From: the human T2T-CHM13v2.0 reference genome, Homo sapiens
Length of the DNA: 64,000 nucleotides
Assembly: GCF_009914755.1 (NCBI RefSeq)
Contig: NC_060935.1
Strand: one strand, 5' to 3'
Made by a program: the position numbers and the translations under genes. The first letter of the stretch is position 1. The number at the start of each line of letters is the position of its first letter. The notes below the pieces were generated by a model. The model saw only the letters and a list, made by a program, of their open reading frames with translations. It ran no database searches and had not been told where the DNA came from. This document shows, in pieces, positions 11,739 through 32,379 of this stretch.

Positions 11739-14006
11739 GTAAATTAATTTCTAATACATGATTTAAAAAAATACAGGTAAAAAATACAGATAAAGATTTA
11801 CTTATATCTCAGCATAATTTAGAACTGTAAAATAATTGGAAATAGCCTTAAATACCCAATAGTAGGGGATGCTTGAGTAAATTGTGACATATCCATATGC
11901 AGCCATTCTAAAAAATATTTTCAAAGAATATCTGAAGATAAGGGAAAGTGTCTGTGATATAAAGTTAAGAAAAAAGTTGGATATGAAATTAAGTATGATA
12001 TGATCTTAATTAAAATATATGTATATGTATTCAACAAATACTTATGGAATGTCTGTGATTGCCAGCATTGTTCTAGAAACAGGACTTATAGTGGTGAAAA
12101 GACAGACAAAGATCCCTCAAGGAGCTTCTGTGCTAGTAGGGAAGCATATAATAAACAAGCAAATAAATATAGAATATAATTTCAAGTGATAAGTGCTATG
12201 AAGAGAAATACAGCAAAATAAAAAGATGGAAAGAGTTCCATGTGCATAGACAAAAGCCTAGGTACAAATGGCACAAGAGGCTAATACTGATTATTTCTGG
12301 GTAGTAGTATTACAGGTGATTTTCTTCTGTTTTTTATTTTTAAAAATTGTCATAAAGTATGTCACTTTCTAATCAGGAAAAAATTGAAACTTAATTTTTA
12401 AAAAGAAAAATTCTTTTGATTCAAAACTTAAGTGAGAGTGTGGAGCTAGGCTTAGGAGGATATGTAAGTCTATACTTATAAAATGACATTGTTTTGGTGC
12501 CTACCTCAGAATTCACAAATTTGGATCCTAAATTTATGTGTTTTCCTGTGTGTACTTAATTTTGGCATTAATGTTTTATAGGCAGCATCTAGTAAAATAG
12601 ACCATTAATTTATTTTTTAATAAATTATGTTTTTTTGCCAATAAATATGTTATTTTTTTGCCATCATCAACTGCCTCATTTAGTTCTTTCCCAGTTTTAC
12701 TTCCTAATTAGTATACTCTTATATTTTCCTGGAATATGCATATAATATATATAATATATAAATATATAGATATATAATTTTGTATTTTTTTCCATATCTT
12801 GACCCAACCATTAAAAATGTTTGTCTCATATATGTTGGCAATTGGTTGAATACTAAACTGTAATGTTTTTCTCTTTAATTACAACTAAGAAATTTATAGT
12901 TAAATTTAAAAAACAAGTGGGCGTGGATATGTGTCCATGTATGGCAACACATCCCACGTGCGTTTATATGGTTGTCTTTTTCTAGCATTGCCTTGTGGCT
13001 CCTCAGAGTTTCTTTTGTACCTAAATTATTTTCAGATGTTGGTTTCTTGACAGTTTTCATACCTATCGTGGTTTGGTAGTACTATAGTTTGGGCCATTAG
13101 ACTGACTCCAGGGTACTGTTAGATGAGGTGATTAGACACTTTCTACTAAATCAGAAAAAAAAACACAGTTATCAGATCTTAGAGATGGATATTTATATTG
13201 CTTGGAACATGCTCAGACCTTTCAACTGGTGTTTTTCCAGAAAGTGTACTATTCACAGTTCTGATTGAAATAATTATCCAATAGACGGGAGGATTAAGTC
13301 TGAGATAACATCTTTGTATAAACCAGTTTTTTACGTCAGAGGTGCCATTTAAGTGTAATTCATTATTGTTATGGTGATAATGATGAATTCAGGCTACCTA
13401 CTTGCTTCCAAAGAAAGCATATATGTTTTTCAGGTAAAAATATGAAAAACAAATCTACTCAATACAATTGGGAATGATCTAAGAAATTGGTGAAATTTTT
13501 CTTATTACTTGTATCAAGCTTTCCCTCAAATCTCAACAATTTTCTACCTTCTTAGTTGTGTGAAGTGGGAATTTGCAAATCAGAAAGAACAATCTATGAT
13601 TGAGTTGAACCCTGGTTTTATTTCATTATTAGTCTTTAGTGACATTAGAATCTGTCTGGTTGTTATTGATCCGGATTTGGAGATACAAGTGGAACACATA
13701 CTTGCTTGTACTCTGGCAGGTTGCCAAGACTAAAATCATGAGTCTTCTGAAATTGTTACTGGCTAGAATAGGTGCAAGTTGTCATTTATAAAGTTAATAT
13801 ATTCTCCTGTTTTATTCCATATGGTTTTATATGTGAGCGCTTTGTTTGTACATATGAAGTAGAACTCATGTTTTTTCCCTTTACTGTGTATTAGACTACC
13901 AAAACCTACTAAGATAATTTTAGATCTTTCACAGAAACTCAACTTAGTCTCATGAATATGTTGCTTCCTCTAGACCTATTTATATTTGTAGTAATTTTTT
14001 TTCCAG

Positions 14007-14129
14007 GAAGTGCTTTCCAGGAAACCAGCATCCACTGGGATAAATACAGGAATAAGAGGAGAGTTGCCCATTAAGGTCCATCAAGGTCTTTTAGCTGCTG
14101 TACCTTACCAGAATTATATGGAAAATCAG
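14007..14129 (+). CDS. CCDC15: CCDC15 coding exon (probably exon 6), 123 nt, EVLSRKPASTGINTGIRGELPIKVHQGLLAAVPYQNYMENQ
   Basis: tttttttccAG acceptor, CAG/GTAGGG donor, 41 open codons, matches recalled CCDC15 protein. Confidence 0.93.
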
Positions 14130-14221
14130 GTAGGGAAATATAAAAAGTAGAGGGGAAAGACATTGGCTTATTAGAAGTATCCACAGCTAACTAAGGATGG
14201 GATAAAGGGTTAAGATATCCA

Positions 14222-14365
14222 GTATTTTTTTTAACGGACTTTATTGAGATATAATTCATATACCATACAATTCACCCATTTAAAGTGTACAATTCATTGG
14301 TTTTTAGCACTCACAGTTTGCACAGGGTTGTGCAACTGTTACCACAATCTAATTTAGAGCATTTT
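14222..14365 (-). mobile_element. Old L1M (L1MB-like) 3' end, continues at 21500
   Basis: ctttattgagatataattcatataccatacaattcacccatttaaagtgtacaattca, a typical L1MB 3' terminus. Confidence 0.75.
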
Positions 14366-17300
14366 ATTTTTAATTTTTTAATTAATTTTTTAAAATAACT
14401 TTTATTTTAGGTTCAAGGATACATGTGTAGATTTGTCATATGGGTAAATTGCATGTTACAGGGGTTTGGTGTACAGATTACTTCGTCACGTGACTTTACC
14501 TAATAGGTAGTTTTCCCATCCTCACCCTCCTTTCACCCTCCACCCTCAAGTAGGCCCTGGTGTCTGTTGTTTCCTTCTTTGTGTTCATATGTACTGAATG
14601 TTTAGCTCCCGCTTGTAAGTTAGAACATGTGGTATTTGGTGTTCTGTTCATGAATTAGTTTGCAGTTTGCTTAGGATAATGGCCTCTAGTTTCATACATG
14701 TTGATGCAAAGGACATGATCTCATTCATTTTTATGGCTGCATAGTATTCCATGGTGTATGTGTACCACATTTTCTTTATCCAGTCTGCTGTTGATGGGCA
14801 TTTAGGTTGATTCTGTGTCTTTGCTATTGTTAATAGTGCTGTGATGAAAATATGTGTGCATGTATCTTTAAGGCAGAGCAATTTATATTCCTCTGGGTAT
14901 ATACCAGATAATGGGATTGCTGGGTTGAATGGTAATTCTGTTTTAAGTTCTTTGAAAAATCACCAAACTGCTTTCCACAATGGCCGAACTAATTTACATT
15001 CCCCTTAGTGGTGTATAAGCATTCCTTTTTGTCCACAGCCGTGTCAGCATCTGTAATCTTTTGGCTTTTTCTGACTGGTGTGAGATGGTATCTTGTGGTT
15101 TTGATTTGCATTTCTCTAATGAGTGGTCCTTGGCCATGTGTATGTCTTCTTTTGAAGTGTCTGTTAATATCCTTTGCCCTCTTTTATGGAGTTTTTTGCT
15201 TGTAAATTTGTTTAATTCCTTGTATTCTGGATATCAGACCTTTCTTTGATGCATATTTTTTCCCATTCTGTAGGTTGTGTGTTTACTCTGTTGATGGTTG
15301 CTTTTGCTGTGCAGAAGCTCTTCAGTTTGATTAGATCCCATTTGTCATTTTTTTTTTGTTGCAGTTGCTTTTGGCATCTTCATCATGAAATCTTTGCCTG
15401 TTTCTATGTCCAGATTGATATTTCCTATGTTATCTTCTAGTGTTTTTTATGCTTTTAGGTTTTACATTTAAGTCTTTAATTCATCTTGAGTTGATTTTTA
15501 TATATGGCATAAGGAATGAGTCCAGTTTCAATCTTCTGCATATAGCTAGCCAAATATATCCCAGTACCACTGAATTGGGATTCCTTTCCCCATTGCTTGT
15601 TTTTGTCAGTTTTGCTGATGATCAGATTGTTGTAGGTGTGCAGCATTATTTCTGGGCTCTCTATCTGTTCCATTGGTCCATGTATCTGTTTTTGTACTGA
15701 TACCATGTTTTGGTTACTGTAGCCTTGTAGTGTAGTTTGAAGTAGGGTAATGTGATTCCTCCAGCTTTGCTCTTTTTCTTAGAATTGCCTTGGCTATTCA
15801 GGCTCTTTTTTGTTTTCATATGAATTTTCAAATAGTTTCTATGAAGAATGTCATTGGTAGTTTGATAGGAATAGCATTGAATCTGTACACTGCCTTGGGC
15901 AGTATGGCCATTTTAACTATATTGATTCTTTTTATCCATGAGCATGAAATGTTTTTCCATTTGTTTGTGTCATCTCTGATTTCTTTGAGCATTGTTTTTT
16001 AATTCTTATTGTAGAGGCCTTTCACCTCCTTAGTTAGCTGTATTCCTAGGTATTTTATTCTTTTGTGGCTATTGTGAATAGGATTGCATACTTGATTTGG
16101 CTCTTAGCTTGGGTATTGTTGGTGTATAGGAATGCTACTGATTTTGTATCCTGAAACTTTGCTGAAGTTGTTTATCAGATCATGGAGCTTTGGGCAGAGA
16201 CTATGGGGATTTCTAGGTATAGAATCATATCTTCTGCAAATAGGGATAGTTTGACTTCCTCTCTTCCTACTTGGATGTCATTTTTTTTCTTTCTCTTGCC
16301 TGATTGCTCTGGCTAGCACTTCTAGTACCATGTTGAATAGGAATGATGAGAGAGGACATCTTTGTCTTGTTCTGGTTTTCAAGGGGAATGCTTCCAGTTT
16401 TGCCTATTCAGTATGATGTTGGCTCTGGGTTTTTTGTTATAGATGGCTATTTTTATTTTGAAGTATATTCCTTCAAACAAATGCCTCGTTTGTTGAGGGT
16501 TTTTAACATGAAAGGATGTTGAATTTTATTGAAAGCCTTTTCTGCATCTCTTGAGATCATCATGTGGTTTTTGTTTTTAGTTCTGTTTATGTGGTGAATC
16601 ACAATTAATGATTTGTGTATGTTGAACCAACCTTGCATCCCAGGGATAGCTTTATTATGGTGGATTAGCTTTTTGATGCACTGCTGGATTTGGTTTGCTA
16701 GTATTTTGTTGAGGATTTTTGCATCTATGTTTATCAAGAATATTAGCCTGAAGTTTTGTTTTTTTGTTGTGTCTCTGCCAGGTTTTGGTATCAGGATGAT
16801 GCTGGCCTTATAGAATAAGTTAGGGAGGACTTCCTCCTCCTCAATCTTTTGGAATAGTTTCAGTAGAAATGATACCAGTTCTTCTTTATAACATCTGGTA
16901 GAATTCAGCTATGAATTTGTCTGGTCCTAGGCTTTTTCTGGTTGATAGGCTTTTTATTACTAATTCATTTTAAGAACGTGTTATTGGTCTATTCAGGGAT
17001 TCAGTGTTTTCCTGGTTCAATCTTGGGAGGTTGTATGTTTCCAGATATTTATCCATTTCTTCCAGATTTTCTAGCTTGTGTGCATAGAGGTGTTCATCAT
17101 AGTCTCCAAGGGTTTTTTTGTGTTTCTGTGAGGCCAGTGGTAATGTCCCCTTTGTCATTTCTGATTGTGTTTATTTGGATATTCTCTCTTTTTAATTAAT
17201 CTAGCTAGTGCTCTATCTTATTAATTCTTTCAAAAGACCAGTTCCTGGATTAATTGATTTCTTGTGTGTTTTCTGTTTCTCAGTTTTTATCAGTTCAGCC

Positions 17301-17879
17301 CTGATTTTGGTTAGTTCATGTCTTCTGCTAGCTTTGGGGCTGGTTTGTTCTTGTTTCTCTAGTTCTTCTAGTTTGATGTTAGGTTGTTAATTTGAGACCT
17401 TTCTAACTTTTTGATGTGGGTGTTTAAAACTATAAACTTCCCTCTTAACACTGCTTTGGCTGTGTCCCACAGATTCTGGTATGTTGTATCTTTTTTCTCA
17501 TTAGTTTCAAATAATTTCTTGATTTCTGCCTTAATTTCATTATTTACCTGGAAGCCATTCAGGAGCAGGTTGTTTAATTTCCATGTAAATGTATGGTTTT
17601 GAGTGATTTTCTTAGCACTGATTTCTATTTTTATTGCATTGTGATCCGAAAGCATGGTTGGTTTGATTTTTGTTTTTTTGTGTTTTTTTGAATTTGCTGA
17701 GGATTGTTTTATGGCTGATTGTGTGGTTGATTTTAGAGTGTGTGCCATGTGCAGATGAGAAGAATGTATATTCTGTTAACTTTGGGGTGGAGAGTTTTGT
17801 AGATATCTATAAGGTCCATTTAGTCAAGTGTTGAGCTCAGATCCTGAATATCTTTGTCAGTTTTCTGCCTTATGATCTC

Positions 17880-18099
17880 TTTTTCTTTTGGAGATGGAGT
17901 CTTGCTTTGTCACCCAGGCTGGAGTGTAGTGGCATGATCTTGGCTCACTGAAACCTCTGCCTCCTGGGTTCAAGTGATTCTCCTGCCTCAGCCTCCTGAG
18001 TAGCTGGGACTGCAGGCACCCACTACCACACCTGGCTAATTTTTGTATTTTTAGCAGAGACAGGGTTTTACCATATTGGCCAGTCTGGCCTTCAACTCA
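17880..18099 (-). mobile_element. 5'-truncated Alu inside the L1
   Basis: Alu right arm plus part of the left arm; flanked by tgatctcttt. Confidence 0.85.
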
Positions 18100-18170
18100 G
18101 TGATCTCTTTAATATTGTCAGGGGGCCGTTGAAATCTCCCACTATTATTGTGTGGTTATCTCAGTCTTGT

Positions 18171-18448
18171 GGGGTCTCACTCTGTCGTCCAGGCAGGAGT
18201 GCAGTGGCATGATCTCAGCTCACTGCAGCCTCTGCCTCCTGGATTCAAGTGATGCTCCCAACTCAGCCACCTGAGTAGCTGGGACTACAGATGCACAACA
18301 TCATGTGTGGCTAATTTTTGTATTCTTTGGTAGAGATGGGGTTTCTTCATGTTGGCCAGGCTGGTTTTGAACTCCTGATCTCAAGTGATCCGCCCACCTC
18401 GGCTTCCCACGGTGCTGGGATTACAGGCATGAGCCATCGCAGCTGGCC
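18171..18448 (-). mobile_element. Alu inside the L1
   Basis: gtctcactctgtc...gctgggattacaggcatgagcc. Confidence 0.85.
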
Positions 18449-21400
18449 TGAGTCTCTTCATAGGTTTCTAAGAACTTGCTTTATGAATCTGGTTGCACTT
18501 GTATTGGGTGCATATATATCTAGGATAGTTAGGTCTTCTTGTTCAATTGAGCTTTTTACTATTATGTAATACCCTTCTTTGTCTTTTTTTAAATTGTTAT
18601 TTGTTCAGAGTCTGTTTTGTCTGAAACTAGAATAGCAACCCCTGCTTTTTTATGGTTTCCATTTGCTTGGTAGATTTTTCTCCATCCCTTTACTTTGAGC
18701 CTATTGGTGTCATTTCATATGAGATGAGTCTCTTGTAGACAGCATACCATTGGGTTTTGCTTCTTTACCCAACTTGCCACTCTGTGCCTTTTAATGGGGC
18801 ATTTAGTACATTTACATTCAAGGTTAGTATTTGGTGTGTGCAGATTTGATCCTGTCATCATGTTGTTAGCTGGTTATACAGACTTGTTTATGTGGTTGCT
18901 TTATAGTATCACTGGTCTATGTACTTAAGTGTGTTTTTGTAGTGGCCAGTAATAGTCTTTCCTTTCCATATTTAGCACTCTCTGCAGCACCTCTTGTAAG
19001 GCAGGTCTGATGGTAATGAATTCCCTTAGCATTTGCTTGTCTGAAAAATATCTTATTTCTTCTTCACTTATGAAGCTTAGTGTGGCTGGATGTGAAATTC
19101 TTGGTTGTAAATTCTCTTCTTTAAGAATGCTTAATATAGGCCCCCAATCTCTTCCAGCTTTTAGGGTTTCTGCCACCAGGTTTGCTGTTAACCTGATGGG
19201 ATTCCCTTTGTAGATGACCTATCTCTTCTCCCTGGCTGCCTTTAACATTTTTTCTTTTATTTTGACCTTGGAGAATCTAAGAACTGTGTGGTTGGGGGAT
19301 GGTCTTCTTCTTCTGTAGTATTTTGCAGGGGTTCTCTGCATTTCCTGAATTTGAATGTTGGCCTCTCTAGCCAGGTTGGACAAATTTTCATGGATGATAT
19401 GAAAATATGAAATACATTTTGCAAGTTGCTTGGTTTCTTTCCCTCTCAGGGATGCCAATGAGTCATAGATTTGGTCTTTTTATATACTTCCATATTTTTT
19501 GGAGGTTTTGTTTATTCTTCTTTATTCTTTTTTCTTTATTTTTGTCTGACTGAGTTATTTTGGAGAGCCAGTCTTTGAGCTCTGAGGTTCTTTCCTCAGC
19601 TTGGTTAATTCTGTTATTAATACTACTGCATTATGAAATTCTTGTAGTGTGTTTTTCAGCTCTATCAGATCAGTTTGCTTCTTATAATGGCCATTTTGTC
19701 TATCAGCTTCTGTATCGTTTTATTGTAATACTTAGATTCCTTGGACTGGGTTTTAACTTTCTCCTGAATGTCGATATTTTTGTTCCTATCCATGTTCTGA
19801 TTTCTATTCCTGTTATCTCAACCATTTCAGACTAGTTAAGAATTATTGTTGGGGAACTAGTGCAGTCATTTGAGGTAAGAAGACATTCTGGCTTTTTGAG
19901 TTGTCAGAGTTCTTGCACTGGTTCTTATGTTTGTGGGCTGTGTTGTTCCTTCAGTCTTTGAAGTTGCTATCCTTTGGATTTTTTTTTTTAATCCTCTTTG
20001 ATGTCCTTGGGGGTTTGATTCTGGTATAAGGGGGAGTCAGTTGACTGGCTTCATTTCTGGAAGATTTTAGGGGCCAGAACTCAGCTCATGACTCTTGGAC
20101 TATGTGCTCCAACTCTGGGGGGCTGGTATTGGCCCTGGCTTTGTTCTCTGGCCTCTTAAGGTTAGGAACCTGCCACACTGGAGGAGCTAAGGTGTTCCCA
20201 GGCTGCTGGTCACAACACACTGATGGATGGTGCCAGCCAAAACGCTTTTTTGGGTGGTGGCAATGGGATTCATGCTTGTTTTTATGTGCCAGCAGCAGTG
20301 GCAGCGTGGCAGGGTACACGCTGTGGTGGGGTGCCGGCAGGTGCAGGGGTGCTGGCCTCCTTGTGGGCATTTGCAGTGGTGGTGGTTGCAGTGCTGCACC
20401 AGAGGATGGAGCGGCGGGAGTGGGGCCTACTGGCATCAGTGTGCATGTTCACTCTGGTGGCAGTGTCAGCATGTCATGGGGCACTCACAGGCATGGGGCT
20501 GGTTCCCTCCAGGTAGGCGTTCATGTGCAGCAGTGGCCGTGCAGGGCAGGGGGTAGGGCTGCTCGTCTCCTTGAGTGCCTTTGCATTGGCAGTAGTGACA
20601 CACCATTGCAGGCAGGGTGCGCTCACATTGGCAGCAGTGGCATGGTGGGATGCATGCACACTGGTGGGGAAGCAGAGGTGAGGTCTGCCTGCACACACAC
20701 ATGTGAGTAAAATGATGTAGGTGTTGCTATGGATGAGTGCATGCTGGAAAAGTGGCATGAGGGAGGACGCAGTGGGGGAAGGGCACAGGCAGGCTCATGC
20801 TGGTTGGTGTGGTCTGCTGTGATGGTCAGGCATGGTCTGCCAGCACAGGAGCTATTATGTGGGCCTCTGGGAGGCACCCCGGTGGGCATCTGAGGTTACA
20901 CTGCAAGCAGGGCTGGGGCCCTGGGAGAGGCTGGTAGACAGGGGTGCACTCATGTAAAACTGGCCCTGTCTCACGGGCAAGATCGCCCTGCACTGTTCAC
21001 GTCCGACAGTTCCCCTGTGGCTAATGTCTCCTAGGGGAGCAAGGTGGGCCTTGGGGGATGGACAGCCTGACCATGCCCCACTACAGATACTCCTGTACCA
21101 AACCCTCTAGGCTTTGCACCGGCTGGAATTCTGCCCACCACCTCTCTAAGCAGCTCTCCCTGCCAGCGCAAGTGTCAGTGGGGTTATGGGGTCTCCTGCT
21201 GCCAGGATTCCAGAGGTCTGTGGAGTGAGCAGGTCTCTTCTCACTTGTTCAATTCATCCCTTCCCCAGGAGCCACTGGGGGCCAGGAACAAGTCCTGGTG
21301 CACGGTAGCCCTCTTCAAGGTTCCCACCTTCCTCCTCCTTTGGCCCAGCATCTGTGTCTTCCCTCTGTCCACTCTTAATGCCTTCCCTCCAAAGATCTGC

Positions 21401-21499
21401 TAAGAGTGTACCTAATGTTCCAGTCTCTCGGTAGTAGATGTTCCTCCTGGCTGCTTCTAGCCAGCTATCTTGTTTTTGGGATTTGCTCTAGAGCATTTT

Positions 21500-23080: not shown

Positions 23081-23195
23081 GTAAACATTGTATAACATTT
23101 GACTATGCTGACCTACTAAAATTATAATAGCAGTGACCTGAAGCCTAGAATTTTATTGCAATCACATTGTTTCTTCCTATAATAGCTACATGGTG

Positions 23196-23196
<1 letters not shown>

Positions 23197-23250
<54 letters not shown>

Positions 23251-23262
23251 CGCGCGCGCGCG
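23197..23262. repeat. Compound microsatellite (TG)23(CG)10
   Basis: Read directly; ends 22 nt before exon 23285. Confidence 0.97.
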
Positions 23263-23284
23263 TTTTCATTGTTTTTTTCTTTAG

Positions 23285-23431
23285 GAACTTGACTATGAGG
23301 AACCTGACTATGAGGAATCTTCATCTCTTGTAACTGATGAGAAAGGGAAAGAAGATTTGTTTGGGAGAGGCCAGCAGGACCAGCAGGCTATCCATTCTGA
23401 AGATAAGAACAAACCTTTCAGCAGAGTTCAG
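23285..23431 (+). CDS. CCDC15: CCDC15 coding exon (probably exon 7), 147 nt, ELDYEEPDYEESSSLVTDEKGKEDLFGRGQQDQQAIHSEDKNKPFSRVQ
   Basis: ttttctttAG acceptor, CAG/GTAAAG donor, 49 open codons. Confidence 0.93.
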
Positions 23432-23669
23432 GTAAAGCAATAAGAGAAATTAAATTAATTGTGATTTGGACTAGGTATTGCCAGTAATGTTGTACTGATT
23501 TAGGATTGTAGATTTAGCTTTTGTTAAGTTGGACAAAGATTATAATTTCACATTTTGTTCTAGTAATTTGCTTCACTGCCATATCATTTTGATATTTTGA
23601 TTATTTTGGAAAATCTAGAGTATTGCTACTAACTCACATTCTGTATTTGGTGTTTATGTTCACTTTTAG

Positions 23670-24677
23670 AAAGTAAAATTCAAAAATCCATTATTTGTTC
23701 TGATGGAAGAGGAAGAACAAAAGCAGTTACATTTTGAGGGCCTTCAGGATATTCTGCCAGAAGCCCAGGATTATTTTCTAGAAGCCCAAGGTGATTTGCT
23801 GGAAACCCAGGGTGATTTGACAGGAATCCAGAGTGTTAAGCCAGATACCCAGGCTGTTGAAATGAAGGTTCAGGTTACTGAGCCAGAAGGCCAGGCCATT
23901 GAGCCAGAAGGCCAGCCTATTAAGACAGAAACTCAGGGTATTATGCTGAAAGCCCAGAGTATTGAGCTAGAAGAAGGGAGTATTGTGTTGAAAACCCAGG
24001 ATTTTCTACCCACAAATCAGGCTCTTCTAACGAAAAACCAGGATGTTTTACTCAAAGACCACTGTGTTCTCCCTAAAGACCAGAGTATTCTACTCAAATA
24101 TCAGGACCAGGACTTCCTACCCAGAGACCAGCATGTTCTCCACAAAGACCAAGATATTCTGCCAAAATATCAGGACCAGAATTTTCTACCTAAGGACCAG
24201 AATTTTTTATCTAGAGACCAGCATGTTCTCCCCAAAGACCAAGATATTCTGCCAAAATATCAGGACCAGAATTTTCTACCTAAGGACCAGAATTTTTTGT
24301 CTAGAGACCAGCATGTTCTCCCCAAAGACCAGAATATTCTACCTAAATATCAAGACCAGGATTTTCTACCTAAAGACCAGGACTTTTTATCTAGAGACCA
24401 GCATGTTCTCCCCAAAGACTGGAATATTCTACCCAAATGTCAGGACCAGGATTTTCTACCCAGAGACCAAGGTGTTCTTCCCAAAGACCAAAATATTCTA
24501 CCCATATGTCAGGACCAGGATTTTCTACCCAGAGACCAAGGTTATCTTCCTAAAGACCAAAATATTCTACCCATATGTCAGGACCGGGATTTTCTACCCA
24601 GAGACCTGCATGTTCTCTCCAACGACCAGAATATTCTACCCAAATGTCAGGACCAAGATTTTCTACCAAAATATCAG
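23670..24677 (+). CDS. CCDC15: CCDC15 large repeat exon (probably exon 8), 1008 nt / 336 aa, KVKFKNPLFVLMEEEEQ...QDQDFLPKYQ
   Basis: cactttTAG acceptor ending 23669, CAG/GTAAAA donor at 24678; contains the 327-aa ORF at 23703..24686; QDQDFLP repeats typical of CCDC15. Confidence 0.95.
23739..24677 (+). repeat. Coding tandem repeat: 21-nt (7-aa) monomers, with 69-nt and 90-nt higher-order units from 24054
   Basis: Heptads such as GLQDILP EAQDYFL EAQGDLL, then RDQHVLP/KDQNILP/KYQDQDFLP/KDQNFLS units; near-identical 90-nt copies at about 24123-24392. Confidence 0.92.
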
Positions 24678-24753
24678 GTAAAATAGAGCAGAAAGGAGAT
24701 ACAAAAAGAAGAAATAAGCTACTTAGGGTTTGAGGAGGGATTTGTAAGGACTG

Positions 24754-27081
24754 CAAGTATACCTTGGAGATACTGTGGGTTCAGTTCCAGGCCATTGCAA
24801 TAAAGCAAATATTGGAATAAAGTAAGTCACACAAATTTCTTGGCTTCCCAGTACATATAAAAGTTATGTTTATATTGTACTGTAGTTTATTAGTGTGCAA
24901 TAGCATAATGCCTAAAAAAAGTACATACCTTAATTTAAAAATACTTTGTTGCTAAAAAATGCTTACGATTATCTGAGTCTTCGGCAAGCCATAATCTTTT
25001 TGCTGGTGGAGGGTCTTGGCTCAATGTTGTTATCTGCTGACTAATCAGGGTGGTGATTACTGATGTTTGGGGTGGCTGTGGAAGTTACTTAAGATGATGA
25101 AGTTTGCCACATCATTTGACTCTTCCTTTCACGAAACATTTCTCTGTAGCATGTGATAATGTTTGATAGCATTTGATCTACAGTAGAACTTCTTTCAGAA
25201 TTGGAATCAATTCCCTCAAACCCTGCCACTGCTTTATCAGCTAAGTCCATGTAATATTCTAAACCCTTTGTTGTCATTTTAACAATGTTCACAGTAGATT
25301 CCATCTCAAGAAAACACTTTCTTTGCTCATCATAAGAAGTAACTCCTTATCCATTTAAGTTTGAACATGAGATTGCAGCAATTCACTCACATCTTCAGGC
25401 TCCACTTCTAATTCTAGTTCTCTTGCTGTTTCTACCACATTACAATTACTTCCTTCACTGAAGTCTTGAATGCCTCAAAGTCCATGAGGGTTCGAATCAA
25501 CTTCTTCCAAACTCCTGTTAAGGTTGATATTTTGACCTCCTCCCATGATTCATGAATGTTCTTAATGGCATCAAGATGGTGGACCCTTTCCAGAGGGTAT
25601 CAACTTACTTTGCCCATATCTATCAGAGGAATTGCTGTCCGTGACAGAAATGTATTTTATAAATAACAAGACTTGAAAGTCAAAATTATTTCTTGATCCA
25701 CAAACTACAGAATGGATGTTGTGTTAGCAGCCATGAAAAAACAACATTAATCTCCTTGTATATCTTCATCAGAGCTCTTGGGTGACTAGGTGCATTGTCA
25801 ATGAGCAGTTTAAAAGGCATCTTTATTTTTTTTGGAACAGTTGGTCTCAACAGTAAGTGTAAAATATTCTGTAAAACATGCTGTAAACAGATGTGCTGTC
25901 ATCTTGGCTTTGTTATTCCCTTCACAAAGCACAAGAAAAGTAGATTTAGTGCCATTCTTACGGGTCCTAGGACTTTTGGAATGGTAAATGTGCATTGGCT
26001 TCAACTTAAAGTCACCAGCTGCATTAGCCACTAACAAGAGAGTCAGCCTGTCCTTTGAAACTTTGAAGCCAGACATTGACTTTTTCTCTCTAGCTGTGAA
26101 ACTCCTAGTCATCTTCTTCCAATATAAGGCTGTTTTGTCCAAACTGAAAATCTGTTGTCCAGTGTAGCCACCTTCATCAGTGATCTTAGCTAGATCTTCT
26201 AGATAACTTGCTGTAGCCTCTCATCAGCACTTACCGCTTCACCTTGCCCTTTGATGTTATAGAGACACCTTATTTCCTTAAACCTCATGAACCAACCTCT
26301 GCTAACTTCCAACTTTTCTTCTGTAGTTTTTTCACTTCTCTCAGCCTTCATAATATTGAAGAGAGTTAGGGCCTTGCTCTGGATCAGGCTTTGGCTTAAG
26401 GAGCTGTTGTGGCTGGTTTGATCTGTCCATACTGCTAAAACATTTTGCATATCAGCAATAAGGCTATTTTGCTTTCTTATCATGTATTCACTGGAGTAGA
26501 TTTTAATTTCCTTCAAGAACTTTTCCTTTGCATTCACACAGGGCTGTTTGGTACAAGAGGCCTAGCCTTCGGACTGTCTTGGCTTTCAACAGGCCTGTTT
26601 CACTAAGCTTAATAATTTCTAGCTGTTGCTTTAAAGTGGGAGACATGTGGTTCTTTCTTTCACTTGAACACTTAGAGACCATTGTAGGGTTATTAATTGG
26701 CCTAATTTCAATATTGTTGTGTCTCAGTGAATAGGGAGGCCTAAGGAGAGGTAGGGGGGTGGCCAGGTGGTAGAACAGTGAGAACACACACAACATTTAT
26801 CAGTTAGGTTTGCTGTCTTAGATGAGCGTGGTTATGGTGCCCCAAAACAATTAGGATAGTAACATCAGAGATCACTGATCATAGATCACTATACCAGATA
26901 TAATAGTAATGGAAAAGTCTGAACTATTGTGAAAATTTCCAAAATGTGACACAGAGACATTACACGAGCACATGCTGTTGGAAAAGTGACACCAGTGTAT
27001 TGGCTTGACGTATGATTGCCACAAACCTTCAGTTTGTAAAAAACACAACATCTGCAAAGCATAATAAAAATAGGTATGCTG
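24754..27081 (-). mobile_element. Near-full-length Tigger1 (pogo-like DNA transposon), transposase broken
   Basis: TIR-like ends caagtatacctt and aggtatgctg followed by TA; transposase fragments 26199..26537, 25810..26142 ([20 protein letters not shown]) and 25089..25304. Confidence 0.92.
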
Positions 27082-27302
27082 TATATTGTACCTGATTTGG
27101 AGATCCATACTTGGAAAAAATAGTTTCTTGATTGATTTCTCAAAACTCCAGTGCTCTTACTAAATGTTAAAGTATTACCAGCAGCATATTACTCCAAATA
27201 AACAATTTGCTGTTTCTTTTCTTTTTATTCAATTTTTTAAATCAACACTCTACCCAGATTTTATGAACAATTTAATTTTTTATTTTTAATCTTCTTCATT
27301 GG

Positions 27303-27425
27303 GAGAAATATTTCTGGCAGCCATTATCTGCTTAGACAGCTGAAAGATGGAAAAAGGAGTGGTCCATAAGTACTCAGCAGTATCTTTCACACAGGTTCCA
27401 AGGCCATCCCTCCACCAGAGATGAG
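27303..27425 (+). other. Dead pseudo-exon copy of the 41-codon CCDC15 cassette
   Basis: Reads EKYFWQPLSA*TAERWKKEWSISTQQYLSHRFQGHPSTRDE (123 nt); acceptor reads TGG, donor reads TTAGAC; flanks resemble those of the real exons. Confidence 0.7.
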
Positions 27426-27637
27426 TTAGACTAAAAGGAAGAAGAAAGACCAACAGGAATTAGATTACTTAGGGTTGTGGTTGGACTTTTGTGGAATGGA
27501 GTGTAGTTTTTGGTTTTTCCATAAGGTGCTCAATTATATTCTGATCTTGGTTAACTCCAGAATTCTCACTAAAACCTAAAGTCTTAACCTGTCATTCTTA
27601 ACGGAGCAATTGATATGTTGTGTTTGTTCTTTCATAG

Positions 27638-27757
27638 AAAGCAAGTCTGAAGCAGCCAACATCCATTTTGATAGGTAGGAGAGGGAGAGAGGCACTTCCT
27701 CTGGATGTCCATCAGGATCTTCTATGCAGGCATCATCAGGCCTCCATCAGAGGCAAG
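27638..27757 (+). other. Intact cryptic exon copy (120 nt, stop-free, AG/GT)
   Basis: ttctttcaTAG, then KASLKQPTSILIGRRGREALPLDVHQDLLCRHHQASIRGK, then AAG/GTAGAA; homologous to exon 29123 (QP..R.RE.LPLD.HQ). Confidence 0.8.
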
Positions 27758-28003
27758 GTAGAAAAGAAAAATGACAGAGACCAACAGGAACTGAATTGTT
27801 TAGAGTGTAGTTTGAAGCTTTCAAAGGTTGTTCTCAGCTAAACTTCAGAACTGACAAAAAGTATGAGTGTCTCTTTTATTCCATAATGTTTTATATTATC
27901 CTGAAAAAAACTACCCTTTGGCCTTCAATGAAGCCTAGAATATTATTGCCATCATATTAGTCTTGCTAGACAATTTATAGTTTTTTATTATTTTATCTTT
28001 TAG

Positions 28004-28126
28004 AAAGTACACTTTAAGGAGCCATACTCTGATATGACAGATGAGAAAGGGAGAGAAGACTTTTCTCTGGCAGACTATCAGTGTTTGCCTCCCAAATCCC
28101 AGGACCAGGATGACATCAAAAATCAG
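28004..28126 (+). CDS. CCDC15: CCDC15 coding exon (probably exon 9), 123 nt, KVHFKEPYSDMTDEKGREDFSLADYQCLPPKSQDQDDIKNQ
   Basis: tatctttTAG acceptor, CAG/GTAGAG donor, 41 open codons. Confidence 0.92.
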
Positions 28127-28226
28127 GTAGAGTAGAAGAAAAAGATATAAACAGGAAGGAAGTACCCAGGTTTTATAAATCCCAACAACTGGTAATTTAG
28201 AATGAGGGATTTTGGAGCTAACCTAA

Positions 28227-28557
<331 letters not shown>

Positions 28558-29122
28558 TAGTGGGAAGATGATCCTAAGTCCTATTAGAACAGAGGAACTG
28601 CTTCAGGAGCATAGAGTGTTAAACACTAAACAATTCAGTTCCTCCTGGTCTCTCTCCTTTTTGTTTTTTTCTCTTCTACTTTGTACTTCAGTGGTACAAA
28701 AGACCCTGGTCTAGGGAACTATATGAGTCAAAATCAGTTCAGTGATTTCTGAGGCTGATGTATCACGTTCATATCTTATTCCAGAATCAGTTGACTATTT
28801 TAATTTAACAAGATTATTCTTCAACTCTTACCAAAGCCAACAGTATTGCTGCAAGCATAATGCCCCTACATGTACAATGTAGGAACTAGAAGATACTTAG
28901 GATTTGATGAGTTTGTCAGACTATTTTGTCAATGATGGGATTAAGAATTAAGGTCTACATAGTTGAGCTAAAAGTGTAACATCTCCCTCATATCAAAACG
29001 TATCAGAATATTTTTACCTGGTTTCATTTCTCTGGAGTTTTCACTGAAGCTTATGATATTATGATTAGCATTACACAATTTTTTTTCTGTTGTTGTTTTT
29101 CCTTTAAAATATGTTTCTCAAG

Positions 29123-29230
29123 CAACCTGCATCTTTTATGAGAGAAGAAAGAGTGAGAGAGGAATTGCCTCTGGACTATCATCAATATGTTGTACCTAAA
29201 ATCCAGGACCAAGACTCCCCTAGAGAACAG
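29123..29230 (+). CDS. CCDC15: CCDC15 coding exon (probably exon 10), 108 nt, QPASFMREERVREELPLDYHQYVVPKIQDQDSPREQ
   Basis: AAG acceptor ending 29122 (first AG after the T-rich tract), CAG/GTAGAA donor at 29231; the recalled protein reads ...KNQ-QPASF... across this junction. Confidence 0.88.
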
Positions 29231-29711
29231 GTAGAACCGAATACAGTAGGAGGACTGTATACCTTCTAAAAGGGGAACAAGCCTAAATCATATTAACATT
29301 GAGGCTGAAGCCTGTCAAGCTAGCTTGTTTGTGGAATACATAGAATTAAGGCCTCCAGAATTAAGCTAAGAGTATAATGTTTTTGGTTATTTCAAAATGT
29401 GCCAGAATAATCTGGAATTTGCTTTAAAATACTCCAGGAAAAACATTGGAGAAGAGATAGATAATAAAGCAAAATGTTGCTAATTGTTGAATCTGGGTAA
29501 TTGTTGAATCTTGAGATTCATTATACTTTTTTTTTTTCTACTTTGATGCAAGTTTGGAAATTTTTATGTTGAACACACACACAGCTTTAACTGTGTTCTA
29601 TTATCCTCACCTAGTGTCATTACTCTGGGATTGTCACTGAAGTCTATAATACTGTCACTAGCCCGTCATTTCTGCTTAGACAATCAGTTTTGTATTTTGT
29701 TGTTCCTTTAG

Positions 29712-29786
29712 AACAAGCATATCAAACTACCCTCATCTTTTGAGAAATGGGAGATTGCAAGAGGAAATACTCCTGGAGTGCCATTG
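29712..29786 (+). CDS. CCDC15: CCDC15 coding exon (probably exon 11), 75 nt, NKHIKLPSSFEKWEIARGNTPGVPL
   Basis: ttccttTAG acceptor, TTG/GTATGT donor at 29787; matches recalled protein. Confidence 0.88.
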
Positions 29787-30098
29787 GTATGTTTCACACA
29801 ATATTCAAGATCTAGTCTCTTCTAGAGAAGTAGAGCAGAATATAGTGAGTAAGTAACAGAGTGTAAATTGCTTTTTTTTTGGCTGAAGATTGACACGGCA
29901 ATGTAACTGCTTCAGGAATTTAGTGTTAAGGTTAGTAATAACGGGCAAAGAATATAACGTTCTTTTGTTCTGTGATGTATCACACCATTCTGACCTATTG
30001 AAACTACCTCAGTCTTCTTGACTGAAGCTTTTACCATTGCCACAGGAATGATGATCCCGCTTGGATAACTTATGTTCAGTGTTTATGTTGTCTTTTAG

Positions 30099-30221
30099 CA
30101 CAGGAACTATGAGTAGGCCTCACGTGATATGAGAGATGAGAGATGGAGGAAGGAGTTACTTCCATAGCGCCATGGATATATTTTACATGAAATCCAAGAT
30201 CCAGGCTCTGCCAGAGAGCAG
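30099..30221 (+). other. Pseudo-exon copy, splice sites intact, two in-frame TAG
   Basis: tctttTAG, then HRNYE*ASRDMRDERWRKELLP*RHGYILHEIQDPGSAREQ, then CAG/GTAGAG; 123 nt. Confidence 0.8.
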
Positions 30222-30693
30222 GTAGAGCAGGGTGTATTAAAGAGTAAGCAACAGAAAGCAAATTAGAGTTTGAGCTGGGCTTGTCATAGTTTCGTTACCA
30301 AAAAAGATCATGATGATCACGTTATCTGTTTTTAAGATTAGCAATAGTGTTATTAATATTATTATGAATAACAGCTTACATTCATTGAACACTTACCACA
30401 GCCAAAATGGTTTTAGAATTTTATATGAAGTATCTTATTTGATTTTCATAATAACCATAGAAGATAGATACTATTATTATCCTTGGATTATAGATGAAAT
30501 TGAAGATTGCTTCGCAGGTAGAGTTAAGATCCAGAATGGTGACAAGAAGTATAATGTCTGCTTTTATGCCATAATATATCAGACTATTCTGACTCATTTA
30601 GATTACTTCAGGGCTATCACTGAAGCTTACAGTATTATCACTACTGTGATACCCCTGCTCACACAATTTGGTAAGTGTTTTTGTATCTTTTAG

Positions 30694-30816
30694 AACTTAT
30701 ACATTAGGCAGCAGCTATCTGTGTGGTCAGCTGAAAGACGGCCACAGGATTTTCTTCTGGGTGGCCATTAGCACCTTTCACCCATGCACCAGAGAGATAC
30801 TTCCAGCAGACGACAG
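30694..30816 (+). other. Pseudo-exon copy, splice sites intact, one in-frame TAG
   Basis: tatctttTAG, then NLYIRQQLSVWSAERRPQDFLLGGH*HLSPMHQRDTSSRRQ, then CAG/GTAGAG; 123 nt. Confidence 0.8.
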
Positions 30817-31057
30817 GTAGAGCACATCACAGGGTATGAGCAGTGGAATTTGGACAAGATTATAGGTACCTACTAAACTGGGAGTGGTCAGGCTGATCAA
30901 GAAGCACATTCCTGTTTTATTTCATACAGCGCAAAATGTATCCTGATATTATTATCCTAATCCTAAGATTATTTTAGGTCTCCCATTGAAACCTAGGGTA
31001 TTTTGGGGAGCATTTATTGTCCATTTGAAAAACTATATTTTAGATGTATTTTTATAA

Positions 31058-31183
31058 AAGGTATATTTCTGATGGCCATTGTCTTTTACAGTGTGAGAGG
31101 GGAAGAAATGAGCAGTTTCTGAGGGCAGGGGTTATGAGGATCTTCCACCCCATGGCCAGTACTAGATCTCCATCAGTAAGCTG
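31058..31183 (+). other. Degenerate pseudo-exon copy (acceptor TAA, several stops)
   Basis: tttaTAA aag gta tat ttc tga tgg cca ... aag ctg/GTAGAGCA; same donor flank and upstream motif as the other units. Confidence 0.6.
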
Positions 31184-31421
31184 GTAGAGCATAAGGCAGG
31201 CTCACCAAGAAATAAACTAATCAGGTTTGGGCTGGAGCTTGTTAGGTTTCTGTTGCCTAAGGTTTGGGGGCATTGAGTTAAGATCTGTAGTTTTTCAAGA
31301 AAATGTTACAACATCCTGGCCTACTAAGATTTTTCCGTGGCTTAACTGAAGTTTAGTTTATTATCACTGGAATTTTACCCCTCTGTGCATAATTTTTATT
31401 TTCTGATTTTATGTTTTTAAA

Positions 31422-31490
31422 AATGAAGGCTTACGGCAACCAGCAGTGTTAGGCTGTGTGAGAGACTGAAGAGAAATTTTCTCTTGGCCT
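31422..31490 (+). other. Truncated pseudo-exon copy (last unit of the array)
   Basis: Reads NEGLRQPAVLGCVRD*REIFSW with QP at codons 6-7, as in other units; upstream motif cctactaagat...actgaag about 79 nt before it. Confidence 0.45.
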
Positions 31491-31639
31491 CTTTAAGAGG
31501 GCAAAATTCAAAGGAGGCAAAGAAGCAGAAAATAGAGTTTGGGCTGCGGTTTTCAGGACTGAACTGCAACTCTTGGTGATTTTTAGTTTGGGTCTGTAAG
31601 GTTGGCCTAAGGGTATGCTGCTGTGTTTTAGTCTACATT

Positions 31640-32280
31640 GTCATTTATACATCCTGAGCCCTGCCAGGCTCTTTCCTACCTCAGGTCTTTTGCATATGTT
31701 GTTTCCTCTTGTCTGGGTAGTCTTCCCTTTTTTCTTCATAAAGTCGGTCCCTTCTTATCCTTCGGGTTTCAGCTTAAATGTCACCTCCTTGGAAAAGGCT
31801 ATCCTTACCACCTTATCAAAAATAGATCTCCTTTTTTCTGTTTTTCTCTATCCTTGCATTCTGTTTGTTGCCTTTTCAGTACAAAACAATTTGTAGTTAA
31901 TTATTAATTTGCTTGTTTTCTTATTGTCTAGAGATTTCCCACTAGCCCATAAGCTTCTTGAGAGAGGTACCATACCTGTTTTGTTTACCATTGTATGAAC
32001 AGCACTTGGCACAGTGGCTAGTACCTAGTAGTCACTTGGTAGATAGGTTTTGAATGTGTTAGTTGATCAGTCAAACATCTATTGAGCACCTTTTAGGTGT
32101 TAGCCATTGTTTAAGTCCTAAATATCAAAGATACAGTTGTGAGCAAGACACGACACTCAAATTTCAGACAATCTAAAGAAGAGAGACTGATACATAAACA
32201 TAATTATGCAGCAGCATAATTAGTGATAGAGGACGCATGGGGCATTCACAAAGCACACAAGAGGGGTACTTACTCTGGAC
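31640..32280. mobile_element. L2 fragments
   Basis: cagcttaaatgtcacctcc, agcacttggcacagtggctagtacctagtag, tattgagcacc motifs. Confidence 0.55.
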
Positions 32281-32379
32281 TATTCAATTCAGGTTACAGC
32301 TTTGGTGATCTGAATCTCTTCTTGTCCTTCTGCTGTTACTATCCCTGGAAATTTTCAACCCTGGAATAGCCTTTTCTCC

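What the first reader, a model, noticed from the sequence alone, without database searches (positions are those of the whole stretch)
13900..31620. Hidden tandem array of 41-codon phase-0 exon cassettes builds the middle of CCDC15
Seen in sequence: twelve exon-like copies start at 14007, 23285, 23670, 27303, 27638, 28004, 29108/29123, 29712, 30099, 30694, 31058 and 31422. Most are, or reduce to, 123 nt. They share P at about codon 7, an R/K-G-R-E-(D/E)-L-x-L core and often a Q-D-Q/S-R-E-Q end. They also share a CAG/GTAGAG-like donor, a downstream TTAG(G/A)GTTTG block, and an upstream CCTACTAAGAT...TCACTGAAGC block. Uninterrupted units are 335-387 bp apart (385, 335, 366, 387, 364, 364); larger gaps contain L1, Tigger1, Alu or MIR-like insertions or the exon expansion. 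Only six copies are in the protein I recall. Inference: the region is an exon birth-and-death array whose symmetric cassettes can be gained or lost in frame. That would change the spacer length between the terminal coiled coils of a protein known to act in the centriole inner scaffold and in centriole length control. I do not recall this architecture being described, but I cannot search.
Basis: partly seen in the sequence, partly recalled or inferred. Interest (0 to 1): 0.85.

Follow-up and report, generated by a model that had tools for sequence, protein, structure and literature searches.

The report
Tandem exon-cassette array inside human CCDC15
The middle of the human centriole protein CCDC15 is built from twelve old tandem copies of one small exon and its flanking intron; this is an ordinary way for a gene to grow, but different mammals keep different copies, and one piece of the array forms the RNA hairpin already known to control skipping of one copy.

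Summary
A profile built from 6 units recovers all 12 claimed copies on the + strand and in register. The 6 copies left out of the profile score E 8e-40 to 4e-9, and 20 shuffled windows give no hit. The repeat unit is about 365 bp: a 123-nt phase-0 exon plus intron flanks. Upstream-flank homology is robust; downstream-flank homology is weaker.

In human, six units are constitutive exons, one is an annotated alternative exon and five are dead.

Protein comparisons support birth and death. Birds, reptiles and a caecilian have one unit. Placental mammals have 3-7 per model. Opossums built a separate 36-residue array. Four of the five human dead units appear as coding exons in other species' gene models. 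Unit 30694 is coding in 18 of 22 named non-primate placentals.

AlphaFold2 predicts the encoded region (residues 188-797) to be unstructured.

New here: the published ADAR-regulated skipping of "exon 9" (Tang 2020) maps to unit exon 28004-28126. Its dsRNA arms, 27762-27809 and 28620-28667, are one unit's flank and an inverted copy of that flank.

Verdict: a real new member of a known kind (tandem exon duplication). An effect on centriole length is untested.

The parts
13870..14227 (+). Unit 1; coding exon 14007-14129 (123 nt, phase 0)
   Evidence: nhmmer E 4.3e-16 as a copy left out of the profile. Upstream flank 13877-13983 is found by the flank-only profile. Extent.
23100..23525 (+). Unit 2; coding exon 23285-23431 (147 nt). 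It carries a 15-nt internal duplication, and a (TG)23(GC)10 microsatellite is inserted in its upstream flank.
   Evidence: TRF rows 23283-23317, 23197-23242 and 23242-23262.
23578..24746 (+). Unit 3; coding exon 23670-24677 (1008 nt). It consists of the unit's 5' part, an internal repeat expansion, and the unit's 3' end and donor flank.
   Evidence: The profile matches 23579-23772 and 24625-24748 separately. The exon-only profile's positions 76-123 hit repeatedly inside 24082-24660.
24037..24667 (+). Intra-exon minisatellite with a 21-nt (7-residue) period and higher orders of 69 and 90 nt. The 90-nt order has 4.0 copies at 91% match (24103-24460).
   Evidence: TRF. Translation shows [KR]DQ[DN]xLP heptads.
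27144..27491 (+). Unit 4; dead in human (27303-27425). The acceptor AG is lost (tgg) and there is 1 in-frame stop.
   Evidence: Coding in Microcebus, Nycticebus and Lemur catta models.
27510..27871 (+). Unit 5; annotated alternative exon 27638-27757 (120 nt). Its downstream flank, 27762-27809, is the left arm of the dsRNA.
   Evidence: Present in 26 of 120 primate and colugo proteins.
27871..28244 (+). Unit 6; coding exon 28004-28126. This is 'exon 9' of Tang et al. 2020, an ADAR-regulated cassette.
   Evidence: Mapping to the paper.
28620..28680 (-). Inverted copy of the unit-5 flank, and the right arm of the dsRNA. It is 48 nt and 85% complementary to 27762-27809, and also 81% complementary to 28131-28156.
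   Evidence: the repeat finder, blastn of its reverse complement and the fold.
28793..28878 (+). Partial unit: upstream flank only, no exon.
   Evidence: nhmmer E 3e-6 to 1e-6.
28985..29330 (+). Unit 7. The ancestral acceptor at 29108 is lost (taa). The annotated exon 29123-29230 (108 nt) uses an AG 15 nt downstream.
29590..29933 (+). Unit 8; annotated exon 29712-29786 (75 nt) uses an internal donor. The ancestral frame then runs into a stop.
   Evidence: Left-out copy, E 8.3e-40..
29959..30333 (+). Unit 9; dead in human (30099-30221). It has 2 in-frame stops, but ttttag and CAG|gtagag are intact.
   Evidence: Coding in 10 of 120 primate and colugo proteins and in 4 of 22 named non-primate placentals.
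30557..30922 (+). Unit 10; dead in human (30694-30816). It has 1 in-frame stop and intact splice sites. It is the orthologue of the last unit exon of most placentals.
30932..31295 (+). Unit 11; dead in human (31058-31180). The acceptor is lost and there are 4 stops. A different-frame 84-nt piece, 31092-31175, is an exon in one gorilla model.
31288..31565 (+). Unit 12; dead and truncated (31422-31544). The acceptor is lost and there are 3 stops.
   Evidence: It is a coding exon in 0 of the 120 primate and colugo proteins.

Best explanation
One ancestral 41-codon, phase-0 exon of CCDC15 was multiplied by tandem segmental duplication of a roughly 365-bp block, the exon plus intron on both sides. 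This happened in a short burst, after the split from the marsupial line and before the boreoeutherian radiation. It gave at least 12 units across 17.7 kb.

The copies then drifted apart independently and met different fates in human:
- Six are constitutive exons. One of these has a shifted acceptor, one has a shifted donor, and one was inflated to 1008 nt by an internal 21-nt minisatellite.
- One is an alternative cassette.
- Five are dead.

Other lineages keep other subsets, and didelphid opossums expanded a unit separately. Because every unit is 0-0 symmetric, any subset splices in frame. The units encode a fast-evolving segment, predicted to be unstructured, between conserved helical ends.

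The array also supplies its own splicing control. Unit 5's downstream flank pairs with an inverted copy of that flank in the next intron and loops out unit exon 28004-28126. This is the dsRNA that ADAR1/2 bind to repress that exon.

Shown here: the homology, the phase, the human fates, the differing subsets in protein models, the single unit in outgroup proteins, and the complementary arms.
Inferred: the duplication mechanism, its timing, and the unit origin of the inverted arm.
For: - Array: the profile recovers 12 of 12 copies, and shuffled controls are empty.
- Divergence: mean pairwise identity is 56% for the upstream flank (55 pairs), 51% for the exon (66 pairs) and 50% for the downstream flank (45 pairs), against 28% for ungapped random pairing.
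- Tree: the unit tree is star-like, with terminal branches of 0.26-0.56 and bootstraps of 24-69.
- Phase: phase 0 throughout.
- Outgroups: of 113 bird, reptile and related proteins, 98 (strict profile) or 105 (iterated profile) hold exactly one unit, and none holds two. A caecilian protein also has one.
- Placentals: 3-7 units per model.
- Marsupials: Australidelphian proteins of 517-558 aa hold one diverged unit. Monodelphis and Gracilinanus show 8-10 anchor-defined copies at 36-residue spacing.
- Human dead units coding elsewhere: 30099 in 10, 30694 in 4, 27303 in 4 and 31058 in 1 of 120 primate and colugo proteins. 30694 is the best match in 18 of 22 named non-primate placentals, mostly 7-20 bits above the next paralogue.
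- Isoforms: the 14 gorilla isoform lengths differ by cassette sizes of 28, 36, 40 and 41 residues.
- Structure: AlphaFold2 gives pLDDT below 50 and no secondary structure for residues 188-797, with helices on either side.
- dsRNA: there is one inverted repeat of 30 nt or more in 22900-31700, with arms 27762-27809 and 28620-28667. It forms the outermost helix in both the MFE and centroid folds of 27740-28700.
- Match to the literature: the arm positions fit Tang et al.'s description of a hotspot 240 nt upstream of exon 9 and a 46-nt complement at the 3' end of the second 300-nt third of intron 9.
Against: - No orthologous DNA was available, so exon structure in other species and the opossum array's exon basis are inferred from proteins.
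- Most models are automatic predictions. Absence of a unit from a model is not loss.
- Downstream-flank homology outside the six core units is weak.
- No afrotherian, xenarthran or monotreme was identified among the named proteins, so 'placental stem' is really 'before the boreoeutherian ancestor'.
- Units 27303, 27638, 31058 and 31422 had no best match in any of the 26 non-primate proteins.
- The link between the opossum repeat and the placental unit is weak by profile comparison (hhalign P 0.0049, probability 7%). It rests mainly on the intermediate Australidelphian unit.
- The unit profile itself does not score the inverted arm. Its unit origin rests on one 48-nt match and two weak matches.
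- Low pLDDT is not proof of disorder.
Confidence: 0.85

Rival explanations
1. The array is neutral padding. Copy gain, loss and skipping are drift in a tolerant, disordered linker, and copy number has no effect on CCDC15 function.
For: - Exons are no better kept between paralogues than their intron flanks (51% against 56% and 50%).
- Unit exons are only 43-68% identical between human and ruminants or colugos, against 94-100% for the C-terminal exon 41645.
- Models across species use very different subsets.
- The region is predicted to be unstructured.
Against: - An 18-residue core (E-E-L-x-L-x-x-H-x-x-L-P-x-x-L-Q-D-Q) is recognisable from caecilian and birds to human.
- Expansion happened independently in opossums and in placentals.
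- Within apes, coding unit 28004 is 98-100% identical, while dead unit 30099 is 84-87%.
Confidence: 0.45
2. Human units 30099 and 30694 are not simply dead. They act as unannotated poison cassettes whose inclusion triggers nonsense-mediated decay.
For: Both keep a ttttag acceptor and a CAG|gtagag donor while carrying 2 and 1 in-frame stops respectively.
Against: They are not in the RefSeq exon table given with the finding. No transcript evidence was examined here. Splice-like sites may simply not have decayed yet.
Confidence: 0.12
3. The copies are exonised members of a dispersed transposable-element family, not local duplicates.
For: None positive. The region does hold Alu-like inserts.
Against: - All copies lie in one 17.7-kb stretch, on one strand and in register. 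None lies elsewhere in the 64 kb.
- A whole-genome DNA search and a protein search with unit 28004 return only the unit itself, although these searches have low power.
- The unit is a coding exon in birds, reptiles and a caecilian.
Confidence: 0.02
4. The similarity among units is maintained by ongoing gene conversion (concerted evolution) and does not reflect one old burst of duplication.
For: Units 29108 and 29712 are somewhat closer to each other (67-69%) than the mean.
Against: No pair exceeds 69% identity. All terminal branches are long and internal support is low. Human units match their orthologues in other orders better than they match their human paralogues.
Confidence: 0.03

Closest known systems
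Tandem exon duplication in animal genes (Letunic, Copley and Bork 2002; Kondrashov and Koonin 2001; Ivanov and Pervouchine 2022, PMC9013439; Martinez-Gomez et al. 2021, PMC8373072)
   Same: Homologous neighbouring exons of equal length and phase, with unannotated decayed copies in the introns. [quoted passage not shown]
   Different: This case has twelve copies, most of them spliced together and not in a mutually exclusive way. Lineage-specific subsets are used, and there is an independent second expansion in opossums. CCDC15 does not occur in the main text of PMC9013439. It does not occur in the held supplements of PMC8373072 (1 file) or PMC5740500 (3 files).
ADAR-regulated skipping of CCDC15 exon 9 through an inter-intronic dsRNA (Tang et al. 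2020, PMC7005744)
   Same: It is the same element. Exon 9 is unit exon 28004-28126. The edited GA-rich site and its complement are the arms 27762-27809 and 28620-28667.
   Different: In the passages I read, the paper treats the duplex as an isolated structure; 'inverted' occurs 0 times in its main text. Here the left arm is the downstream flank of the neighbouring unit, starting 4 nt after the donor of alternative exon 27638-27757. The right arm is an inverted copy of that flank.
RNA structures generated by tandem duplication that steer exon choice (Ivanov and Pervouchine 2018, PMC6071210; ATE1, PMC7797038; Dscam)
   Same: Duplication of an exon with its flanks creates repeated intronic sequence that can base-pair and control which exon is included.
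   Different: Those cases use competing selector and docking pairs to enforce one-of-many choice. Here a single looping helix brackets one cassette and acts through ADAR binding. I saw only the search listing for PMC6071210 and PMC7797038.
Coding minisatellites such as mucin VNTRs
   Same: The 21/69/90-nt head-to-tail repeat inside exon 23670-24677, with recent 90-nt copies at 91% match. The length of the encoded segment differs among primates: 236 residues matched in Cebus against 336 in Pan.
   Different: It sits inside one member of an exon array and repeats the LP-x-x-QDQ part of the unit itself. Copy-number polymorphism in people was not tested.
One-repeat-per-exon proteins (nebulin, titin, collagens; recalled, not checked here)
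   Same: Protein repeats grow by duplication of symmetric exons.
   Different: Those repeats fold into defined domains or helices. The CCDC15 units are predicted to be unstructured and are far more diverged.

Membership tests
Tandem exon duplication array | Homologous exons adjacent in one gene, on the same strand and in the same order | tested here: met
   12 of 12 copies on the + strand and in register. Shuffled controls are empty.
Tandem exon duplication array | Flanking intron sequence duplicated together with the exon | tested here: met
   The upstream-only profile finds 5 of 6 left-out units. The downstream-only profile finds 2 of 6, weakly.
Tandem exon duplication array | Same length class and same intron phase (symmetric exons) | tested here: met
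   All begin in phase 0. Lengths are 123, 147, 1008, 120, 123, 108 and 75 nt, all divisible by 3.
Tandem exon duplication array | Fewer copies in outgroups | tested here: met
   At protein level only: one unit in 98-105 of 113 sauropsid-list proteins and none with two.
Mutually exclusive exon cluster | Exactly one exon of the cluster is included in each transcript | tested here: not met
   NM_025004.3 joins six units in one open frame. Ape models join up to eight.
Transposable-element-derived exons | Copies dispersed elsewhere in the genome or matching a repeat family | tested here: not met
   No copy elsewhere in the window. Whole-genome DNA and protein searches return only the query itself, at low power. 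No repeat library was available.
Coding minisatellite / VNTR (internal 21/90-nt repeat) | Head-to-tail copies within one exon | tested here: met
   TRF periods of 21, 69 and 90 nt; the 90-nt repeat has 4.0 copies at 91% match.
Coding minisatellite / VNTR (internal 21/90-nt repeat) | Copy number varies among individuals | not testable with these tools
   There is one hint. The annotated 90-nt gap 24154-24243 equals one period and has no GT..AG in any of its 67 equivalent placements.
Exon-looping inter-intronic dsRNA bound by ADAR | Complementary arms in the two introns flanking the cassette | tested here: met
   48 nt, 85% complementary, and the only inverted repeat of 30 nt or more in 22900-31700. 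It is the outermost helix in the MFE and centroid folds.
Exon-looping inter-intronic dsRNA bound by ADAR | ADAR binding or editing and an effect on inclusion | not testable with these tools
   Reported by Tang et al. 2020 (passages read). The mapping onto window coordinates is mine.
Pfam family covering the 41-residue unit | A curated profile matches the unit | tested here: not met
   No Pfam hit for 7 unit or exon translations. The precomputed label PF28517 is absent from the local Pfam copy. It co-occurs with the C-terminal Cys motif in 298 of 298 labelled proteins and in 0 of 11 unlabelled ones.

The most novel reading that the evidence does not exclude
The unit is not passive spacer. It carries a short binding motif (core E-E-L-P-L-x-x-H-Q-x-L-L-P-K-x-Q-D-Q) that has been kept since early tetrapods. 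That motif has been amplified three separate times: by the placental exon array, by the opossum 36-residue array, and by the intra-exon heptad minisatellite, which repeats the LP-x-x-QDQ part. On this reading CCDC15 is a multivalent ruler whose motif number sets its avidity for, or reach along, the periodic centriole inner scaffold. The array's own inverted fragment would give cells an ADAR-controlled switch of valency.
Probability: 0.17. Interest if true: 0.7.

Novelty: new member of a known kind. Interest (0 to 1): 0.45.

Why it matters
CCDC15 is a recently described centriole inner-scaffold protein tied to centriole length and integrity (PMC10630097, abstract). In that paper's main text the words exon, isoform, coiled, truncation and residues each occur 0 times.

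- The roughly 600 central residues turn out to be a modular, lineage-variable cassette array. This gives natural length variants and clean in-frame deletion designs for asking what the linker does.
- The result gives an evolutionary origin for a published ADAR-regulated splicing switch.
- It flags two splice-competent, stop-bearing units (30099 and 30694) and a probable coding VNTR. Both matter for variant interpretation and isoform annotation.
- It is also a clear case of one exon being expanded independently in two mammalian lineages.

Tried and rejected
- Tandem Repeats Finder on 13000-33000 does not report the 365-bp period.
- Pfam gives no credible family for the units or for three full-length orthologues.
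- hhalign of the opossum repeat against the placental unit is weak (P 0.0049, probability 7%). I therefore call that link probable, not shown.
- Whole-genome searches with one unit, as DNA and as protein, return only the query. They do not even find the neighbouring paralogues, so they say little.
- An alignment query on the window's own genome is not accepted by the tool.
- The Rfam scan gives only sub-threshold SRP and miRNA-family matches inside repeats.
- The unit profile does not score the inverted arm meaningfully.
- The earlier-findings tool was not open.
- Paper reading closed, so the supplements of PMC9013439, a genome-wide screen that could list CCDC15, were not seen.
- Block-wise higher-order duplication was considered and not supported: the tree has no supported internal structure.
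- Dating by a molecular clock was not attempted beyond noting the branch lengths, because alignment at about 50% identity is unreliable.
Full report
**1. Observation**

A BLAST of one unit (27850-28250) against the window finds the others only on the + strand, at 59-70% identity.

An nhmmer profile built from six units (exon -150..+130) recovers the six units left out, at E 8.3e-40 to 3.9e-9. It also finds the 3' end of the big exon with its donor flank, and one flank-only fragment at 28775-28878.

Twenty block-wise dinucleotide shuffles of the window give no hit with the full profile. The split profiles give at most 7.1 bits.

The intron flanks are part of the repeat. An upstream-only profile finds 5 of the 6 left-out units. 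A downstream-only profile finds 2 of 6, and weakly. A profile of all twelve units finds nothing else in the 64 kb. Tandem Repeats Finder misses the 365-bp period.

All coding exons in the window start in phase 0, and all but the last are multiples of three.

**2. Anatomy in human**

- Six units are in NM_025004.3.
- Unit 27638-27757 is an annotated alternative exon.
- Unit 29108 lost its acceptor (taa) and uses an AG 15 nt further on (29123).
- Unit 29712 uses an internal donor, giving a 75-nt exon.
- Unit 23285 carries a 15-nt internal duplication, and a TG/GC microsatellite sits in its upstream flank.
- Exon 23670-24677 is a unit whose two ends still match the profile. Its middle is a 21-nt (7-residue) minisatellite with 69- and 90-nt higher orders. 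That repeat matches positions 76-123 of the exon profile, which is the LP..QDQ part.
- Five units are dead. Units 27303, 31058 and 31422 lack an acceptor AG and carry stops. Units 30099 and 30694 keep ttttag and CAG|gtagag but carry 2 and 1 stops.

**3. Age and mode**

Mean pairwise identity among units is 56% for the upstream flank, 51% for the exon and 50% for the downstream flank. Ungapped random pairing gives 28%; the aligned values are somewhat inflated by the alignment itself. Exons are no better kept than introns.

The unit tree is star-like, with terminal branches of 0.26-0.56 substitutions per site and bootstraps of 24-69. This fits one old burst of duplication followed by independent decay. 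It argues against ongoing gene conversion.

**4. Other species (proteins only)**

Primates and colugos. A search with the big exon returned 544 proteins, of which the best 120 were listed. All 120 are primate or colugo CCDC15, mostly automatic models. Mapping them onto the window by tblastn shows human dead units used as coding exons elsewhere:
- 30099 in 10 of 120: Hylobates, Pongo, Rhinopithecus, Macaca nemestrina, Galeopterus, Nycticebus and Saguinus.
- 30694 in 4: Galeopterus, Cynocephalus, Eulemur and Microcebus.
- 27303 in 4: Microcebus, Nycticebus and Lemur.
- A different-frame piece of 31058 in 1 gorilla model.
- 31422 in none.

Per-species chains show different subsets. Gorilla isoform lengths differ by cassette sizes.

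Distant orthologues. A library-wide search with the chimpanzee protein shows that distant orthologues of 400-570 aa match only the N- and C-terminal parts.

Birds and reptiles. A named search places the short forms in birds, turtles, an alligator, squamates and a caecilian. Of the 113 newly returned proteins from that search (birds and reptiles plus two unnamed rows), 98-105 hold exactly one unit and none holds two; the caecilian protein, scanned separately, also holds one.

Marsupials. A second named search shows that Monodelphis and Gracilinanus proteins of 890-1012 aa carry one canonical unit plus 8-10 anchor-defined copies of a 36-residue repeat. Seven Australidelphian marsupials have proteins of 517-558 aa. 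Their single diverged unit, for example Dromiciops 271-300, bridges the opossum repeat and the placental consensus. Direct profile comparison of the opossum repeat with the placental unit is weak.

Non-primate placentals. These hold 3-7 units per model. In 18 of 22 named species, the last unit before the exon-40403 equivalent matches human dead unit 30694 best, mostly 7-20 bits above the next paralogue. That unit was therefore probably lost on the anthropoid line.

No afrotherian, xenarthran or monotreme was identified among the named proteins.

**5. What the array encodes**

A 60-sequence alignment shows near-invariant N- and C-terminal parts, including a Cys-rich C-terminal motif, and a poorly conserved middle.

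AlphaFold2 on the 991-aa gorilla isoform gives pLDDT below 50 and no secondary structure for residues 188-797. Helices lie at 58-121, 161-185 and 799-990.

Unit exons are 43-68% identical between human and ruminants or colugos, against 94-100% for exon 41645. Even so, an 18-residue core is recognisable from caecilian to human.

No Pfam family covers the unit. The precomputed PF28517 label tracks the C-terminal Cys motif: 298 of 298 labelled proteins have the motif, against 0 of 11 unlabelled ones.

**6. A link to published work**

Full-text searches for CCDC15 with 'tandem repeats', 'exon duplication' or 'repeats' found no description of the array. They did lead to Tang et al. 2020 (PMC7005744).

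The passages I read say the following:
- CCDC15 exon 9 is a cassette repressed by ADAR1 and ADAR2.
- The repression acts through a dsRNA between a GA-rich hotspot 240 nt upstream of exon 9 and a 46-nt sequence in intron 9.
- That 46-nt sequence lies at the 3' end of the second 300-nt third of the intron.

In the window, the only inverted repeat of 30 nt or more within 22900-31700 has arms 27762-27809 and 28620-28667. It is 48 nt long and 85% complementary. The left arm lies 195-242 nt upstream of exon 28004-28126. The right arm lies 494-541 nt into the 996-nt intron that follows. This identifies 'exon 9' as unit exon 28004-28126.

The helix is the outermost pairing in both the MFE and centroid folds of 27740-28700. 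The fold as a whole has a z-score of -4.8 against shuffles.

The left arm is unit 5's downstream flank, starting 4 nt after the donor of alternative exon 27638-27757. The reverse complement of the right arm also resembles the donor flanks of unit 6 (81% over 26 nt) and of the big exon (65% over 65 nt, E 0.1). The right arm is therefore probably an inverted copy of a unit's flank. This origin is inferred, and it is not stated in the passages I read; 'inverted' occurs 0 times in that main text.

**7. Comparison with what is known**

Tandem exon duplication with unannotated decayed copies is well known (passages in PMC9013439, and PMC8373072). This locus is a new member of that kind, not a new kind.

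CCDC15 is absent from the main text of PMC9013439. It is also absent from the held supplements of PMC8373072 and PMC5740500.

The JCB paper on CCDC15 does not mention exons, isoforms or domains in its main text.

**8. Verdict**

The birth-and-death reading is supported at the level of proteins and of human DNA. The functional claim about linker length and centriole size remains open.

Noticed in passing
window 24154-24243: The 'intron' implied by the other-transcript exons 23670-24153 and 24244-24677 is exactly 90 nt, one period of the 90-nt coding repeat. It can be placed at 67 equivalent positions, and none of them has GT..AG ends. It looks like a copy-number allele or a template-switch artefact, not splicing.
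   Followed up: partly
window 23197-23262: A perfect (TG)23 run followed by (GC)10 sits about 20-90 nt upstream of the acceptor of coding exon 23285-23431, inside that unit's upstream flank. Such a tract could be length-polymorphic and could affect splicing.
   Followed up: no
proteins P0039-P0067 (17 Pongo isoforms), matching window 18174-18293, 28253-28384, 32456-32527: Seventeen orangutan CCDC15 models end in a roughly 40-residue segment that matches Alu-like repeats in the window at 50-64% identity. This suggests an Alu-derived terminal exon in those models.
   Followed up: partly
window 31092-31175: Human carries an open 84-nt piece with a ttttacag acceptor and a gtaagc donor, lying in a different frame of dead unit 11. 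It is 96% identical to an exon of gorilla isoform X1 and is not annotated in human.
   Followed up: partly
window 26375-26456: A sub-threshold match to the mir-1261 family (44 bits; gathering score 91) lies in the 2.4-kb gap after the big exon.
   Followed up: no
alignment A1, C-terminal part (gorilla residues ~920-960; encoded outside the window): A Cys-rich motif (L-P-P-L-C-x-C-G-x-x-F-W-x-x-H-P-x-T-C-A-N-x-C-x-F-Y-K-N) is nearly invariant from caecilian and birds to human, which suggests a metal-binding module. The model's pLDDT there is 62-85.
   Followed up: no
protein P0363 (a bird model, 847 aa): One bird gene model fuses CCDC15 (PF28517) with a sugar-phosphate exchanger (PF07690). SLC37A2 is the next gene after CCDC15 in human, so the neighbourhood appears conserved and the model is probably a read-through.
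   Followed up: no
window 27758-27809: The ADAR-bound left arm begins 4 nt after the donor of alternative exon 27638-27757. The same duplex could therefore also mask that exon's 5' splice site, which the published minigene work, as far as I read it, did not examine.
   Followed up: no
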